Origin: a virus
Taxonomy: Duplodnaviria > Heunggongvirae > Uroviricota > Caudoviricetes
Reading direction: 5' to 3' (one strand)
Length of the DNA stretch: 35,452 nt
Virus record (IMG/VR): IMGVR_UViG_2563366975_000004
In this document: piece after piece, positions 9,434-19,227 of the stretch
Layout: each line of letters begins with the position of its first letter
Position numbering within the stretch: the first letter of the stretch is position 1
Program-made: the position numbers and the translations under genes
Notes under the pieces: generated by a model
The model's input: the letters and a program-made list of their open reading frames with translations, nothing else
Told to the model about the DNA's origin: nothing
The model's database searches: none

Positions 9434-9856
9434 GTGGCAAAAGTTTTTACACAAGAAGAGCGGGAAAAAATTAAAGGGCTGATCGTGGAATTCGTACGCC
9501 TTAACGGACGAGGCACGATTCGGCAGTTATCGGATGAAATTGGTGTCAGTCATGCGTCTGTCGGTCGTTTATGCATGGAGCTGGCCGCCAGTGGTGATGT
9601 TTACAATTCCGGTTACGGAGTATTCCCGTCTGAGCAGGCGCGCAAGGACTGGCAAAACGCCCGCAAAAAACTCTCAAGGGCAAAGCTGAAGAAACCATCT
9701 GTGGTTGATCCGGACCTTATCTGGCTATTACCAGACGGCGAAATACGCCGCTACGACAGGCGTCAGAACATAATCTGTCGCGAGTGCCGGAAGAGCGAAG
9801 TTATGCAGCGCATATTGTCGTTTTATCAGGGTAATTTTCAGGAGGTAGCGCAGTGA
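9434..9856 (+). CDS. Hypothetical protein with HTH-like N-terminus (140 aa, GTG start)
   Basis: AGGAGGG RBS before GTG; segment IRQLSDEIGVSHASVGRL resembles an HTH. Confidence 0.45.
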   Translation: MAKVFTQEEREKIKGLIVEFVRLNGRGTIRQLSDEIGVSHASVGRLCMELAASGDVYNSGYGVFPSEQARKDWQNARKKLSRAKLKKPSVVDPDLIWLLPDGEIRRYDRRQNIICRECRKSEVMQRILSFYQGNFQEVAQ

Positions 9857-10347
9857 GTGCACCGGCAACCATTCTTGATATGTGCTGTGGCAGCCGCATG
9901 TTCTGGTTCGATAAGAATGACGACCGGGCGATATTTAGCGATATCAGAAAGGAAGAGCACACATTATGTGATGGACGAAGACTGATAATTAGCCCTGACC
10001 TGATAGCAGATTTTCGTGCATTACCATTTGCAGACGCATCGTTTCCGGTTGTTGTATTCGACCCTCCGCATCTTGAGCGTGTTGGTGATAACGCCTGGAT
10101 GGGAAAGAAATATGGACGGCTGAATAAAGATACCTGGCGTGATGATTTGCGGCAGGGATTTAAAGAAGCCTTTCGTGTGTTGCGGCCATACAGCGTTCTG
10201 ATTTTTAAATGGAATGAAACGCAAATACCTGTTCGCCAGATATTGGCACTGACCGACAGAAAGCCTGTTATCGGTCAACGAACAGGAAAGGGTGACAAGA
10301 CCCACTGGATTATTTTTATGAAGGAGGCGACCAGTGAGCAAGATTGA
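9853..10347 (+). CDS. Small phage DNA N6-adenine methyltransferase, Dam-like (164 aa)
   Basis: SAM-binding-like DMCCGS motif and catalytic-like VVFDPPH (DPPY-type) motif; size typical of small phage Dam proteins. Confidence 0.6.
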   Translation: MSAPATILDMCCGSRMFWFDKNDDRAIFSDIRKEEHTLCDGRRLIISPDLIADFRALPFADASFPVVVFDPPHLERVGDNAWMGKKYGRLNKDTWRDDLRQGFKEAFRVLRPYSVLIFKWNETQIPVRQILALTDRKPVIGQRTGKGDKTHWIIFMKEATSEQD

Positions 10348-10519
10348 CTATCAGGCACTGCGCGAGGCGGCGGAACAGGCAACGCAAGATGAATGGGTAG
10401 CATATATTTTGCCGGGTCATAACGGCATTTATCCTGCGCGCACGTCTGAGGGTAGGCATTGTGCGGATACTTTATTGACTGGCCTGGCGTCTGTCAGGGG
10501 CGGGAGAGCATCAACATGA
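10334..10519 (+). CDS. Ea22-like N-terminal module, short ORF (61 aa)
   Basis: Starts MSKIDYQALREAAEQA, the same N-terminal module as the Ea22-like gene at 10956; short, possibly a truncated mosaic remnant. Confidence 0.35.
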   Translation: MSKIDYQALREAAEQATQDEWVAYILPGHNGIYPARTSEGRHCADTLLTGLASVRGGRAST

Positions 10520-10959
10520 GCATCAGAACCTACGCAGTGAATTGCAATGACGCATGGCTAAACACCGAAGGTGATGACATCTCCGGCTCATACGTTAAGT
10601 ACAAAGACCATCAGGAAGTGGTTGCCGCTCTTGAGGCCAAGTGCGCGGCGCTGGCGGCGGAGAATGCGGTAATAAAGTCTGCAATTCCAGAACCACGGGA
10701 TATTGAGGACGACAATGACAATATGGATGACGTATCTCTTGCTGAAGATTTCGGGTTCAATCATGCAATAGAACTGATGAGGAGACGGATTCCTGAAACT
10801 CCGGCCACCGATGCTTTCCTGGCTGAAGTACGGGCGCAGGGCGTGGATACAGCTATCGAGCACCTGCATAAGAAGTTTAAAGGAACTGTGCTTGTTGGCG
10901 TCCCGGTAATGGCGTTGGAGTATTTAGCCGCAGAGCTTCGCAAAGGAGGCAACCAGTGA
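10516..10959 (+). CDS. Hypothetical protein (147 aa from internal ATG)
   Basis: ATG at 10516 overlaps preceding stop; acidic central region; stop overlaps start of next gene. Confidence 0.45.
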   Translation: MSIRTYAVNCNDAWLNTEGDDISGSYVKYKDHQEVVAALEAKCAALAAENAVIKSAIPEPRDIEDDNDNMDDVSLAEDFGFNHAIELMRRRIPETPATDAFLAEVRAQGVDTAIEHLHKKFKGTVLVGVPVMALEYLAAELRKGGNQ

Positions 10960-11705
10960 GCGAAATTAATTACCAGGCACTGCGTGAGGCAGCAGAACGT
11001 GCAATTCCAGCAATGGAACGCCTGTTAATGTTGCCAACTGATGATGATTTGTTAAGTGAACAGGAACTTAAAGATTACGGTGTGGATATTGATGCGCTCA
11101 ATGCCTTCAAATTTCTGACCGGACCAGAAACCGTGCTGGCACTACTGGATGAACGGGAAAGGAACCAGCAATACATCAAACGCCGCGACCAGGAGAACGA
11201 GGATATTGCGCTAACGGTAGGGAAGCTGAGAGTTGAGCTTGAGGAAGTAAAACAACACGCTGAAGAATTATCCGAAACCAAGGCTGTTCGTAACCAATGG
11301 CGGCCAGATATTTGCCCAATAACCGGACGTGCATTTTTCATGTGGATTGAGCATCCAACATTGGGGAATGTGCCGACATATGGTGGCCCATTAGATAGTT
11401 ACACCATTCCAACAAAGGACGGTGACGGTGAGTTTTCATGTGAGCGTTACGATCATGATTTTGGCGGTTGGGTAGAAAGCGAATGTCTTGGGTTATATCT
11501 GATTGATGATAGAGAACAATGCAGGGTCTACGAACTGGAGGAACGCGTTAAGGAACTGGATGCTCGGGAAATATCGCTCCCGGAACGTAGCAGCATGCTT
11601 CATCGAACAGATTTTCACGATGATTACCAAACGGTAATGGCATACAAAGTTTCTGAAGTCATCGCTGCAATCCGCGCCGCTGGCATTCGCATCAAAGGAG
11701 AGTGA
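10956..11705 (+). CDS. ead/Ea22-like protein (249 aa)
   Basis: N-terminal MSEINYQALREAAERA module and overall organisation recalled from Ea22-like prophage proteins. Confidence 0.6.
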   Translation: MSEINYQALREAAERAIPAMERLLMLPTDDDLLSEQELKDYGVDIDALNAFKFLTGPETVLALLDERERNQQYIKRRDQENEDIALTVGKLRVELEEVKQHAEELSETKAVRNQWRPDICPITGRAFFMWIEHPTLGNVPTYGGPLDSYTIPTKDGDGEFSCERYDHDFGGWVESECLGLYLIDDREQCRVYELEERVKELDAREISLPERSSMLHRTDFHDDYQTVMAYKVSEVIAAIRAAGIRIKGE

Positions 11706-11706
11706 T

Positions 11707-17609: not shown

Positions 17610-17708
17610 TGATTTTTCCCGAATCTGTGGTAAATTTGCTCTAACGATGGGCGTTTTATGCCTGACGTTAGAAGATTTTTTACACCCCGCCGCCTGGCGG
17701 GTTTTTTA
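17610..17708 (+). promoter_or_regulatory. Candidate late promoter/qut region ending in intrinsic terminator (tR'-like)
   Basis: TTGATT...TAAATT promoter-like elements then GC hairpin caccccgccgcc-tggcgggg followed by TTTTTT at about 17686..17708. Confidence 0.45.
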
Positions 17709-17829
17709 TGACTGAAATCGCGTCAGTACAGTAAACGCGCTGGTGGCGGTGAATACCTGTCTTTCAGCTTGCTGGCTTTTTCGACAAGAGTTATTGGTGT
17801 GTCACGTTAACCGGAAAAGGGAAAAAGAC

Positions 17830-18027
17830 ATGCTAAAACAGCAGGATATGACAGAAACCGCCAGAGTGGTGTTTAATGAATTAAGCGTTACCGAACCGGC
17901 GACAGTCGGGGAGATAGCGCAGAATACTTACCTTTCACGCGAACGCTGCCAGTTAATACTGACCCAGCTGGTTATGGCGGGTCTGGCAGACTATCAGTTC
18001 GGTTGTTACAGACGCCTTCCGCAGTGA
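17830..18027 (+). CDS. Hypothetical small protein (66 aa from internal ATG)
   Basis: Track ORF 17743..18027 trimmed to the internal ATG lying downstream of the terminator; followed by its own terminator. Confidence 0.4.
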   Translation: MLKQQDMTETARVVFNELSVTEPATVGEIAQNTYLSRERCQLILTQLVMAGLADYQFGCYRRLPQ

Positions 18028-18040
18028 AGGCTTTTTTATT
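18014..18040 (+). terminator. Rho-independent terminator
   Basis: gccttc-cgcagt-gaaggc hairpin followed by TTTTTTATTT. Confidence 0.5.
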
Positions 18041-18177
18041 TGTGGTAAATGGGCGGCTGGTGGGTGTTAGGGGCACCCACCAGCCATCTGCTCATGCGTT
18101 GGGTTCACAAGCAAACCTCAGGCCCACTGCTTTGCGCAAAAGCAGAATGAGCCTATCAGAGACAGGCTTAATGATCC

Positions 18178-19227
18178 ATGCTTAATACTGTAAAAATATC
18201 CAGTTGTGAGTTAATCAACGCCGACTGCCTGGAATTTATCCGGTCGTTACCCGAAAATTCTGTTGACCTGATAGTCACGGACCCGCCGTACTTTAAAGTG
18301 AAGCCTGAGGGCTGGGATAACCAGTGGAAGGGCGACGATGATTACCTGAAGTGGCTGGACCAGTGTCTGGCGCAGTTCTGGCGGGTGCTGAAACCTGTCG
18401 GAAGTCTTTACCTGTTCTGTGGTCATCGCCTGGCATCTGATATCGAAATCATGATGCGTGAACGCTTCTGTGTGCTGAACCATATTATCTGGGCGAAGCC
18501 GTCCGGACGCTGGAACGGATGCAACAAGGAAAGCCTGCGGGCGTATTTCCCCGCCACAGAGCGCATTCTGTTCGCGGAACATTATCAGGGGCCGTATCGT
18601 CCGAAAGATGCCGGGTATGCGGCGAAGGGCAGTGCACTGAAACAGCATGTGATGGCCCCGCTGATTTCTTACTTTCGTGATGCGCGCGCGGCCCTGGGGA
18701 TAACGGCAAAACAGATTGCAGATGCCACAGGAAAGAAAAACATGGTGTCGCACTGGTTCAGTGCCAGTCAGTGGCAGCTACCGAACGAAAGCGATTATCT
18801 GAAATTACAGTCGCTGTTTGCCCGGGTGGCAGAAGAGAAACATCAGCGCGGTGAACTGGAAAAGCCCCACCACCAGCTGGTGGATACGTATACGTCACTG
18901 AACCGGCAGTATGTGGAGCTGCAGAGTGAATATAAGCATCTGCGGCGGTATTTTGGTGTGACGGCGCAGGTGCCGTACACGGATGTGTGGACACATAAAC
19001 CGGTGCAGTTCTATCCCGGGAAACATCCGTGCGAAAAACCGGCAGAAATGCTGCAGCAGATAATCAGCGCAAGCAGTCGTCCGGGTGACCTGGTTGCAGA
19101 TTTTTTTATGGGCTCAGGTTCAACGGTAAAAGCTGCACTGGCGCTCGGGCGTCGTGCGATTGGCGTTGAACAGGAGACCGGACGTTTTGAGCAGACAGTC
19201 AGGGAAGTTCAGGATTTAATCGTTTGA
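18178..19227 (+). CDS. Orphan DNA methyltransferase (N6-adenine/N4-cytosine class, DPPY motif), 349 aa
   Basis: Catalytic motif IVTDPPYF near N-terminus and SAM-binding FFMGSGST near C-terminus (beta-class order); no adjacent restriction endonuclease gene. Confidence 0.8.
   Translation: MLNTVKISSCELINADCLEFIRSLPENSVDLIVTDPPYFKVKPEGWDNQWKGDDDYLKWLDQCLAQFWRVLKPVGSLYLFCGHRLASDIEIMMRERFCVLNHIIWAKPSGRWNGCNKESLRAYFPATERILFAEHYQGPYRPKDAGYAAKGSALKQHVMAPLISYFRDARAALGITAKQIADATGKKNMVSHWFSASQWQLPNESDYLKLQSLFARVAEEKHQRGELEKPHHQLVDTYTSLNRQYVELQSEYKHLRRYFGVTAQVPYTDVWTHKPVQFYPGKHPCEKPAEMLQQIISASSRPGDLVADFFMGSGSTVKAALALGRRAIGVEQETGRFEQTVREVQDLIV

What the first reader, a model, noticed from the sequence alone, without database searches (positions are those of the whole stretch)
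9853..19227. Two distinct orphan DNA methyltransferases in one prophage
A small Dam-like enzyme (9853..10347) in the early region and a 349-aa beta-class DPPY methyltransferase (18178..19227) just after the Q-like gene; neither has a cognate restriction endonuclease nearby. Dual orphan methylases suggest layered anti-restriction or epigenetic control, with different expression timing (early versus late).
Basis: partly seen in the sequence, partly recalled or inferred. Interest (0 to 1): 0.4.

Follow-up and report, generated by a model that had tools for sequence, protein, structure and literature searches.

The report
Two known-type prophage orphan methyltransferases
This E. coli lambdoid prophage carries a near-identical copy of the already characterised non-specific adenine methyltransferase M.EcoGI/M.EcoGII in its late operon. 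It also carries a small, widespread but untested phage methyltransferase in its early operon, so the finding is real but largely ordinary.

Summary
Both ORFs exist at the stated coordinates, and no restriction endonuclease partner was found.

**The 349-aa protein** is a beta-class DPPY enzyme.
- It is 94% identical to published M.EcoGII.
- It is 97% identical to the copy in the syntenic E. coli O104:H4 prophage, which is probably M.EcoGI.
- That family methylates adenine in any sequence context, is silent in lysogens and is harmful when expressed constitutively. It is therefore not a motif-specific orphan.
- The gene lies behind a Q antiterminator and two terminator-like hairpins. It sits in a conserved cassette with a 65-aa upstream ORF and a structured leader of about 150 nt. 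This fits late, induction-only expression.

**The 164-aa protein** is not Dam-like.
- It has no Dam-family Pfam hit.
- It is a minimal class I methyltransferase core with an invariant DPPH motif and no target-recognition domain.
- Its family occurs in the early modules of temperate phages of many phyla.
- Its substrate is untested.

The two genes are independent mosaic modules. Homologues of the large gene are in 36% of complete E. coli genomes and of the small gene in 17%.

Novelty is low. The only open points are what the small enzyme methylates and what the 65-aa ORF and leader do.

The parts
9853..10347 (+). 164-aa small SAM-dependent methyltransferase (DPPH family, no target-recognition domain). 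Its GTG start overlaps the stop of the upstream DUF977 gene.
9874..9894 (+). Motif I (SAM binding) of the small enzyme, LDMCCGS, residues 8-14.
   Evidence: Invariant or nearly invariant columns L8 D9 C11 C12 G13 S14 in alignments A2 and A4.
10060..10071 (+). Motif IV (catalytic) of the small enzyme, DPPH, residues 70-73.
   Evidence: Invariant D70 P71 P72 H73. DPPH is present in 375 of 385 family sequences.
16782..17603 (+). Q-type late antiterminator.
   Evidence: Pfam PF03589 at 7.8e-51. PHROG 127, Q-like.
17609..17636 (+). Putative late promoter pR' (TTGATT, 16 nt, TGgTAAATT). Inferred from sequence only.
   Evidence: Read. It falls below the threshold of the promoter scan. The region co-varies with Q type in other phages.
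17686..17707 (+). Terminator-like hairpin with T run (tR'-like). It marks the left edge of the conserved cassette.
   Evidence: The homologous position in phage SfV is annotated as a rho-independent terminator. Similarity to cassette-bearing phages with other Q types begins here.
17830..18027 (+). 65-aa ORF with weak winged-helix resemblance, always paired with the methyltransferase.
   Evidence: Pfam TrmB at 18 bits, below threshold. Present upstream of the MTase in 77 of 78 IMG/VR loci and in phiP27, SfV, 1720a-02 and mEp460. The pairing holds down to 52% identity of the small ORF.
18028..18177 (+). Conserved structured leader of about 150 nt, including a second terminator-like hairpin (18014..18031) and a hairpin at 18150..18168 just upstream of the start codon.
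   Evidence: MFE -73.5 kcal/mol, z -3.2. Spacing fixed at 149-157 nt. Highly conserved.
18178..19227 (+). 349-aa beta-class N6-adenine DNA methyltransferase, an allele of M.EcoGI/M.EcoGII.
   Evidence: Pfam N6_N4_Mtase at 6e-44. 94% identical to the published M.EcoGII sequence. 97% identical to the O104:H4 prophage copy. PADLOC MTase_II at 1.3e-165.
18280..18291 (+). Catalytic DPPY motif, residues 35-38.
   Evidence: Sequence; identical in M.EcoGII.
19105..19119 (+). SAM-binding FxGxG motif (FMGSG, residues 310-314).
   Evidence: Sequence; identical in M.EcoGII.
19277..19436 (+). Two tRNA genes (anticodons CAT and TCG) directly downstream of the methyltransferase, as in Stx phages.
   Evidence: ARAGORN. 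RefSeq names them tRNA-Ile and tRNA-Arg. phiP27 has ileZ and argO in the same position.

Best explanation
The two genes are unrelated mosaic modules of a lambdoid prophage integrated next to ompW.

**Gene 18178..19227.** It encodes an allele of the characterised M.EcoGI/M.EcoGII enzyme. This is a beta-class methyltransferase that converts adenine to N6-methyladenine in any sequence context.
- It belongs to a conserved cassette: terminator, 65-aa ORF, structured leader of about 150 nt, then the methyltransferase.
- The cassette sits between the Q antiterminator and the tRNA and lysis genes. This is the slot occupied by stx genes in Shiga-toxin phages.
- Inferred mechanism: in the lysogen the gene is off. 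After induction, Q-modified RNA polymerase reads through the terminators, the enzyme is made late, and it heavily methylates replicating and packaging phage DNA. Progeny DNA then resists many adenine-sensitive restriction systems in the next host. This would be a functional analogue of phage Mu Mom.
- The tight control fits the enzyme's harm to the host.

**Gene 9853..10347.** It encodes a minimal methyltransferase of about 155 aa, with SAM motif I first, a DPPH catalytic motif next, and no target-recognition domain.
- Its family is spread through the early or replication modules of temperate phages.
- It is most likely an early-expressed DNA amino-methyltransferase (m6A or m4C) of unknown, possibly low, specificity.
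- It is not a Dam homologue.

**Shown versus inferred.** Shown here: sequence identity, motifs, gene order, cassette conservation and family distribution. Inferred: timing of expression, the role in anti-restriction, and the substrate of the small enzyme.
For: **Large enzyme**
- Pfam N6_N4_Mtase at 6e-44.
- 328/350 identical to the M.EcoGII sequence printed in the SUPREM supplement.
- 340/349 identical to the methyltransferase of the syntenic O104:H4 prophage. That copy differs from M.EcoGII at about the number of positions reported for M.EcoGI (333/349 in PMC5778455).
- M.EcoGI and M.EcoGII are non-specific for adenine, unexpressed in the lysogen and deleterious when constitutive. The EC958 homologue M.EcoMV, 99% identical to M.EcoGI, is predicted inactive in the lysogen from RT-PCR, and no methylation pattern could be assigned to it.

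**Late position**
- Q lies upstream.
- Two terminator-like hairpins sit between Q and the gene. The first is annotated as a terminator in SfV.
- tRNA and lysis genes lie downstream.

**Cassette**
- 77 of 78 loci carry the 65-aa ORF at a fixed gap of 149-157 nt, while only 38 of 75 carry the window's Q type.
- The same layout is found in phiP27, SfV, 1720a-02 and mEp460.

**Mom analogy**
- A 55%-identical homologue in Aeromonas phage PhAER-2 is preceded by an overlapping Com-family zinc-ribbon ORF (PF10122, 33.9 bits).
- Other non-specific adenine methyltransferases replace mom in Mu-like prophages (PMC3299994).

**Small enzyme**
- DPPH is present in 375 of 385 relatives.
- The core is about 155 aa with variable, non-homologous extensions.
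- It matches 254 phage records, from Streptococcus, Listeria, Vibrio, Acinetobacter and Gordonia phages to haloarchaeal viruses.
- It lies in the early region in A118 and in an Acinetobacter prophage.
- The confident model has a class I methyltransferase fold.
Against: - No expression or methylation data exist for this locus.
- The M.EcoGII sequence used for comparison came from a machine-read supplement and contains obvious reading errors, so 94% is approximate.
- I could not confirm by accession that the O104:H4 copy is M.EcoGI.
- The putative pR' scores below the promoter-scan threshold.
- An IS21-family element sits in the late operon downstream of the methyltransferase. This prophage may therefore no longer make particles, in which case protecting progeny DNA would be moot here.
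- Only 11 of 26 relatives of the small enzyme show even a weak N6_N4_Mtase hit.
- I found no paper that characterises any member of the small family.
Confidence: 0.75

Rival explanations
1. Two motif-specific orphan DNA methyltransferases, one of them Dam-like, give layered anti-restriction or epigenetic control by marking two different motifs at two different times.
For: - Both are orphans and sit in the early and late operons.
- Small phage methyltransferases without an obvious recognition domain can be sequence-specific. PamA, 141 aa with NPPY, methylates GATC.
Against: - The large enzyme is 94-97% identical to enzymes shown to be non-specific.
- The small one has no Dam-family hit.
- Homologues are silent in lysogens.
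- The two genes mostly occur apart, in 1966 versus 899 of 5426 genomes. Only 13 genomes share the whole 10-kb arrangement.
Confidence: 0.1
2. The 164-aa protein is not a DNA methyltransferase. It methylates RNA (for example N2-guanine or N6-adenine in tRNA or rRNA), a protein, or a small molecule, to adjust host physiology early in the lytic cycle.
For: - Its closest folds are generic class I enzymes. They include the tRNA and rRNA m2G enzymes Trm11, TrmN, Trm14 and RsmC, which share a (D/N)PP(Y/F/H) motif.
- RefSeq names one copy 'TRM11 family methyltransferase'.
- It has no recognition domain.
- Its model lacks the usual helices between strands 1 and 4.
Against: - REBASE-style type II and orphan methyltransferase profiles match end to end.
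- The family is essentially phage-borne and sits next to replication and recombination genes, sometimes beside C5 DNA methyltransferases.
- A few members carry HTH-type extensions.
- Weak N6_N4_Mtase hits occur in 11 of 26 members.
Confidence: 0.2
3. Both genes are inert cargo of a decaying prophage and are never usefully expressed in this strain.
For: - An IS21-family element interrupts the esterase gene in the late operon.
- In the nearly identical Ecol_316 prophage the portal gene is split by the same kind of IS.
- Several neighbouring ORFs are annotated as frameshifted.
- M.EcoGI/II are unexpressed in lysogens.
Against: - Both ORFs are intact with all catalytic motifs.
- Identical copies occur in several unrelated isolates.
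- The early operon, Q, and the cassette with its regulatory signals are undisturbed.
- The IS lies downstream of the methyltransferase.
Confidence: 0.12

Closest known systems
M.EcoGI / M.EcoGII (E. coli O104:H4 C227-11 prophage enzymes; Murray et al. 2018, PMC5778455)
   Same: - Same length, 349 aa.
- 94% identity to M.EcoGII and 97% to the O104:H4 syntenic copy.
- Same beta-class order: DPPY, central helical recognition domain, FxGxG.
- Same prophage location, and the surrounding 10 kb is 98.4% identical over 96% of its length.
   Different: - 9 substitutions relative to the O104:H4 copy (for example A74V, S98C, L332Q), none in DPPY or FxGxG.
- The activity of this allele has not been measured.
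Phage Mu Mom/Com, and the non-specific adenine methyltransferases Hia5, Hin1523 and Nme1821 that replace Mom (Drozdz et al. 2012, PMC3299994)
   Same: - A late, host-harmful, sequence-independent adenine modification that protects phage DNA from many restriction enzymes.
- A small regulatory ORF lies immediately upstream.
- An M.EcoGII homologue in an Aeromonas phage has a true Com-family ORF upstream.
   Different: - Mom is not a methyltransferase, and Hia5-type enzymes are alpha-class.
- The E. coli cassette has a 65-aa winged-helix-like ORF, not a Com zinc ribbon.
- Its control is presumed to be by Q antitermination. No role of the small ORF has been shown.
Dam family (E. coli Dam, T4 Dam; Pfam PF02086) and small phage Dam-type enzymes (PF05869; PamA of S. 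aureus prophage, PMC12435837)
   Same: - An orphan, phage-borne amino-methyltransferase with a xPPx catalytic motif.
- PamA is similarly tiny at 141 aa.
   Different: - The 164-aa protein has no hit to either Pfam family.
- Its motif is DPPH rather than DPPY or NPPY.
- It has no recognition domain.
- GATC specificity is unknown.
PHROG 954 / PADLOC PDLC03288 small phage methyltransferases (for example Listeria phage A118 ORF50)
   Same: - Full-length profile match.
- Same size.
- Same place in the early or replication module.
   Different: - None detected.
- The family has only computational annotation. A118 ORF50 is labelled as methylating cytosine, other members are labelled N6-adenine, and I found no experiment for any of them.

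Membership tests
M.EcoGI/M.EcoGII non-specific adenine methyltransferases | High full-length sequence identity to the characterised enzymes | tested here: met
   94% (328/350) to the M.EcoGII sequence from the SUPREM supplement. 97% (340/349) to the copy in the syntenic O104:H4 prophage.
M.EcoGI/M.EcoGII non-specific adenine methyltransferases | Beta-class architecture: N-terminal DPPY, central recognition domain, C-terminal FxGxG | tested here: met
   DPPY at residues 35-38 and FMGSG at 310-314. The central region aligns without gaps to M.EcoGII. Pfam N6_N4_Mtase spans residues 29-340.
M.EcoGI/M.EcoGII non-specific adenine methyltransferases | Encoded on an E. coli lambdoid prophage | tested here: met
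   Prophage next to ompW with integrase, Q, lysis and head genes.
M.EcoGI/M.EcoGII non-specific adenine methyltransferases | Methylates adenine irrespective of sequence context; silent in the lysogen | not testable with these tools
   Known for the reference enzymes only.
Dam family (PF02086 / PF05869) | Significant match to a Dam-family profile | tested here: not met
   No such hit for the 164-aa protein at E<=0.01, nor for 26 relatives at E<=0.1. No NCBIfam hit.
Dam family (PF02086 / PF05869) | DPPY/NPPY catalytic motif together with a target-recognition domain | tested here: not met
   The motif is DPPH in 375 of 385 relatives. The conserved core is only about 155 aa with nothing that could serve as a recognition domain.
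Dam family (PF02086 / PF05869) | GATC-specific N6-adenine methylation | not testable with these tools
   Needs a DpnI/MboI digestion or SMRT assay on the cloned gene.
Small DPPH phage methyltransferases (PHROG 954, PADLOC PDLC03288) | End-to-end profile match and conserved motifs I and IV | tested here: met
   PHROG 954 at 2.7e-87. PDLC03288 at 2.6e-73 over profile positions 3-164 of 169. LDxCCGS and DPPH are invariant.
Small DPPH phage methyltransferases (PHROG 954, PADLOC PDLC03288) | DNA methyltransferase activity | not testable with these tools
   No characterised member was found in the literature searches. The fold search is non-specific.
Type II restriction-modification system | Cognate restriction endonuclease adjacent to the methyltransferase | tested here: not met
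   - None in the RefSeq annotation of the identical prophage.
- No PADLOC hits for the neighbours tested.
- The PD-ExK-like ORF at 11707..12222 has a phage distribution unlike that of the small methyltransferase.

The most novel reading that the evidence does not exclude
Two things remain open.

- **The small enzyme.** The 164-aa DPPH protein represents a very large, uncharacterised family of phage methyltransferases without a recognition domain. Its members may act as oligomers on replicating or single-stranded DNA with little or no sequence specificity, or they may act on RNA.
- **The cassette.** The invariant 65-aa ORF and the structured 150-nt leader in front of M.EcoGI/II-type genes could form a Com/Mom-like post-transcriptional switch that keeps a host-toxic enzyme off until late in infection.

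Neither has been described in the papers I could search.
Probability: 0.25. Interest if true: 0.5.

Novelty: already known. Interest (0 to 1): 0.2.

Why it matters
The practical value is corrective.
- The late gene should be annotated as a non-specific adenine methyltransferase of the M.EcoGI/M.EcoGII type, not as a motif-specific orphan.
- The early gene should not be called Dam.

Non-specific adenine methylation by a late prophage gene would help explain how lambdoid and Stx-type phages cross restriction barriers between E. coli lineages. Homologues of the gene are in about a third of complete E. coli genomes.

The small DPPH family and the 65-aa ORF with its leader are cheap experimental targets. 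They could reveal a new minimal DNA methyltransferase, or a control circuit for a widely used biotechnology enzyme.

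Tried and rejected
- **Shallow alignment.** The first AlphaFold run on the small enzyme used only relatives of 74-94% identity and gave pLDDT 62. I discarded it. A second run with 104 more diverse sequences gave pLDDT 91.6.
- **PDB sequence searches.** The single sequence found nothing and the family profile found only generic methyltransferases.
- **A possible characterised relative.** Pneumophage SpSL1 cds16, a predicted m6A enzyme with no detected activity, is an unrelated beta-class protein.
- **PamA.** PamA of S. aureus is a different small family, with NPPY and GATC specificity.
- **A possible hidden endonuclease.** The PD-ExK-like ORF at 11707..12222 has no Pfam, PADLOC or PDB match. 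It also occurs in many lytic phages without the methyltransferase. I rejected it as a partner.
- **Source paper.** Fang et al. 2012, the original catalogue of C227-11 methyltransferases, is not held. I could not check whether the small gene was tested there.
- **Covariation in the leader.** The sequences are too similar to be informative.
- **Phage lambda pR'.** blastn of the Q-proximal region returned no phage lambda match among the records listed. The resemblance of the -10 and pause region to lambda pR' rests on my memory only.
- **Literature searches.** Searches for 'DPPH motif' returned nothing.

Full report
**Observation**

The window is a lambdoid E. coli prophage. A 10-kb stretch around the finding is 100% identical to chromosomal prophages next to ompW in several isolates, such as Ecol_316. 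It is 98.4% identical over 96% of its length to a prophage of E. coli O104:H4.

The gene order on the + strand is:
- cro-like and YdaT-like genes
- HTH replication protein (8416..9393)
- DUF977 (9434..9856)
- small methyltransferase
- three Ea22-like genes, then short ORFs and hokD
- DUF968, RusA and Q (16782..17603)
- 65-aa ORF
- 349-aa methyltransferase
- two tRNAs, an esterase gene, lysis genes and head genes

No restriction endonuclease is annotated or detectable nearby.

**The 349-aa enzyme**

It matches Pfam N6_N4_Mtase at E=6e-44. DPPY is at residues 35-38 and FxGxG at 310-314, which is the beta-class order.

The M.EcoGII protein sequence is printed in the supplement of the SUPREM paper (PMC11551740). 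That copy was machine-read and contains a few obvious reading errors. The window protein is 328/350 identical to it. It is 340/349 identical to the methyltransferase of the syntenic O104:H4 prophage. That O104:H4 copy differs from M.EcoGII at about 20 positions, including the reading errors. This fits the 16 differences reported between M.EcoGI and M.EcoGII, so the O104:H4 copy is probably M.EcoGI. I could not confirm this by accession.

Murray et al. (PMC5778455) reported several properties of these enzymes:
- M.EcoGII methylates adenine in any context, up to 86% of dA in vivo and 99% in vitro.
- It also acts on single-stranded DNA and on RNA.
- It is not expressed in the lysogen.
- It makes cells sick when expressed constitutively.
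- It belongs to a very large family in E. coli prophages.

They propose that it is switched on at induction to defeat restriction. Other methylome studies agree. For the EC958 homologue M.EcoMV, 99% identical to M.EcoGI, RT-PCR led the authors to predict it is inactive in the lysogen, and no methylation pattern could be assigned to it. O111 STEC strains carry two homologues.

Homologues of the gene (megablast matches) are found in 1966 of 5426 complete E. coli genomes. In 592 of these the identity is at least 99%. This part of the finding is therefore an already characterised enzyme type. The expectation that it has its own motif is wrong.

**Context of the 349-aa gene**

Immediately after Q there is a weak sigma-70-like promoter with an extended -10 (17609..17636, read). 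It scores below the threshold of the promoter scan. A GC-rich hairpin with a T run follows at 17686..17701. A second terminator-like hairpin lies at 18014..18031. Expression from the late promoter would therefore need Q antitermination. This is an inference from lambdoid architecture.

Between the two hairpins lies a 65-aa ORF (17830..18027) with only a weak winged-helix resemblance (TrmB, 18 bits). This ORF is tightly linked to the methyltransferase:
- It precedes the gene in 77 of 78 IMG/VR loci that have enough upstream sequence.
- The gap is always 149-157 nt.
- Only 38 of 75 of those loci carry the window's type of Q.
- The same pair occurs in phiP27 (followed by ileZ, argO and stx2e), SfV (flanked by two annotated terminators, then the holin), 1720a-02 and mEp460.
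- The pairing persists when the small ORF is only 52-53% identical and the methyltransferase 81-87% identical.

Similarity to cassette-bearing phages that have other Q types starts at the first terminator. The promoter-proximal part tracks the Q type instead. The unit is therefore terminator, 65-aa ORF, leader, methyltransferase.

The leader has these features:
- It folds strongly (MFE -73.5 kcal/mol, z = -3.2).
- A hairpin ends 10 nt before the start codon.
- By eye there is no good Shine-Dalgarno sequence.
- In the phiP27-type alleles of the leader alignment the position of the window's ATG reads TTG.
- It is too conserved to test covariation.

A 55%-identical homologue in Aeromonas phage PhAER-2 is preceded by an overlapping Com-family zinc-ribbon ORF (PF10122, 33.9 bits against a cut-off of 22.9). 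That is the com-mom layout. Drozdz et al. showed that other non-specific adenine methyltransferases replace mom in Mu-like prophages. They note that mom is a late function and harmful to the host. Together these observations support a Mom-like late anti-restriction role. They raise, but do not show, a regulatory role for the 65-aa ORF and the leader.

**The 164-aa enzyme**

'Dam-like' is not supported. The protein and 26 diverse relatives give no hit to the Dam families. They give only weak hits to the generic Methyltransf_11/25 models. Eleven of the 26 also give weak N6_N4_Mtase hits. NCBIfam has nothing. RefSeq calls it 'class I SAM-dependent methyltransferase', or in one assembly 'TRM11 family'.

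It does match phage and REBASE-style profiles end to end: PHROG 954 at 2.7e-87, PADLOC MTase_II PDLC03288 at 2.6e-73, and the orphan-methyltransferase profile at 3.8e-49.

The family is large. There are 2020 clusters at 50% identity with E<=0.001. The conserved core is about 155 aa and contains:
- LDxCCGS (motif I)
- D..R
- PD..DF
- an invariant DPPH, present in 375 of 385 sequences
- KYG
- E..RVL
- FKW

Extensions at either end are variable and unrelated to one another, and there is no recognition domain.

The gene is essentially a phage gene. tblastn finds it in 254 phage records, from Streptococcus, Vibrio, Acinetobacter, Porphyromonas, Listeria, Gordonia and Enterococcus phages to haloarchaeal tailed viruses. 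In the contexts inspected it lies in the early or replication module (A118 ORF50, an Acinetobacter prophage), as it does here. Its GTG start overlaps the stop of the DUF977 gene.

I found no experimental characterisation. The database labels disagree, with cytosine in A118 and phiFL1A and N6-adenine in a halovirus. My best reading is an early DNA amino-methyltransferase of unknown, possibly low, specificity. A non-DNA substrate remains a real alternative.

**Relation between the two genes**

They are separate mosaic modules. Homologues of the small gene are in 899 genomes and of the large gene in 1966 genomes, out of 5426. Only 13 genomes share the whole 10-kb arrangement. A different phage, Stx2c_EH0430, also carries both, with diverged versions. 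The combination therefore recurs, but nothing suggests that they work together. Several silent orphan methyltransferases per prophage-rich strain is a documented pattern.

**Verdict**

It misses the fact that the late enzyme is a known non-specific adenine methyltransferase, and it mislabels the early one. Novelty is low. The residual interest lies in the untested small DPPH family and in the conserved ORF-and-leader cassette in front of M.EcoGI/II-type genes.

Noticed in passing
window 17686..18177: A terminator, a 65-aa winged-helix-like ORF (17830..18027) and a strongly folding leader of about 150 nt form an invariant unit in front of M.EcoGI/II-type methyltransferase genes. The unit is the same whichever Q type lies upstream. 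A hairpin ends 10 nt before the start codon and there is no clear Shine-Dalgarno sequence. It may be a control element for a toxic enzyme.
   Followed up: partly
L092 2790..3017 (Aeromonas phage PhAER-2): An unannotated 75-aa ORF overlapping the start of a 55%-identical M.EcoGII homologue is a Com-family zinc ribbon (PF10122, above threshold). This is a com-mom-like layout for this methyltransferase family.
   Followed up: partly
window 20964..25251: An IS21-family element (IstB at 21661..22416 and IstA at 22413..23912, both on the minus strand) splits the DUF1737/SASA-esterase gene of the late operon. In the near-identical Ecol_316 prophage the same kind of IS instead splits the portal gene. 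The prophage may be defective.
   Followed up: partly
window 11707..12222: An intact 171-aa ORF has a PD...ExK-like nuclease motif (QPDAMGF...LIEAKCS) and belongs to PHROG 9263/631 of unknown function. RefSeq annotates only a short 'frameshifted' pseudogene here. Homologues occur in 642 phage records, including lytic Vi01-like phages. It is not linked to the small methyltransferase.
   Followed up: partly
window 19277..19436: Two tRNA genes follow the methyltransferase. ARAGORN calls the first tRNA-Met (CAT anticodon), but RefSeq and phiP27 label the equivalent gene tRNA-Ile (ileZ), that is, a lysidine-modified CAT. The second is tRNA-Arg (TCG). The arrangement matches that of Stx phages.
   Followed up: no
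phage records H146-H153 (for example TL-2011c, PA33 and several Stx2a phages): Several Stx2a-converting and related phage records listed match only the last 33 codons of this methyltransferase gene (query residues 316-348, 79-82% identity). This suggests that the cassette was deleted or replaced in those phages.
   Followed up: no
window 14746..14901: A hokD-type type I toxin gene (51 aa) lies in the region between the Ea22-like genes and DUF968.
   Followed up: no
window 9853..10347 (model m2ca5d1e02ced): The confident model of the small methyltransferase lacks the helices that normally pack between strands 1 and 4 of the Rossmann fold. One face of the sheet is left exposed. This hints at obligate oligomerisation or an unusual substrate-binding surface.
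   Followed up: no
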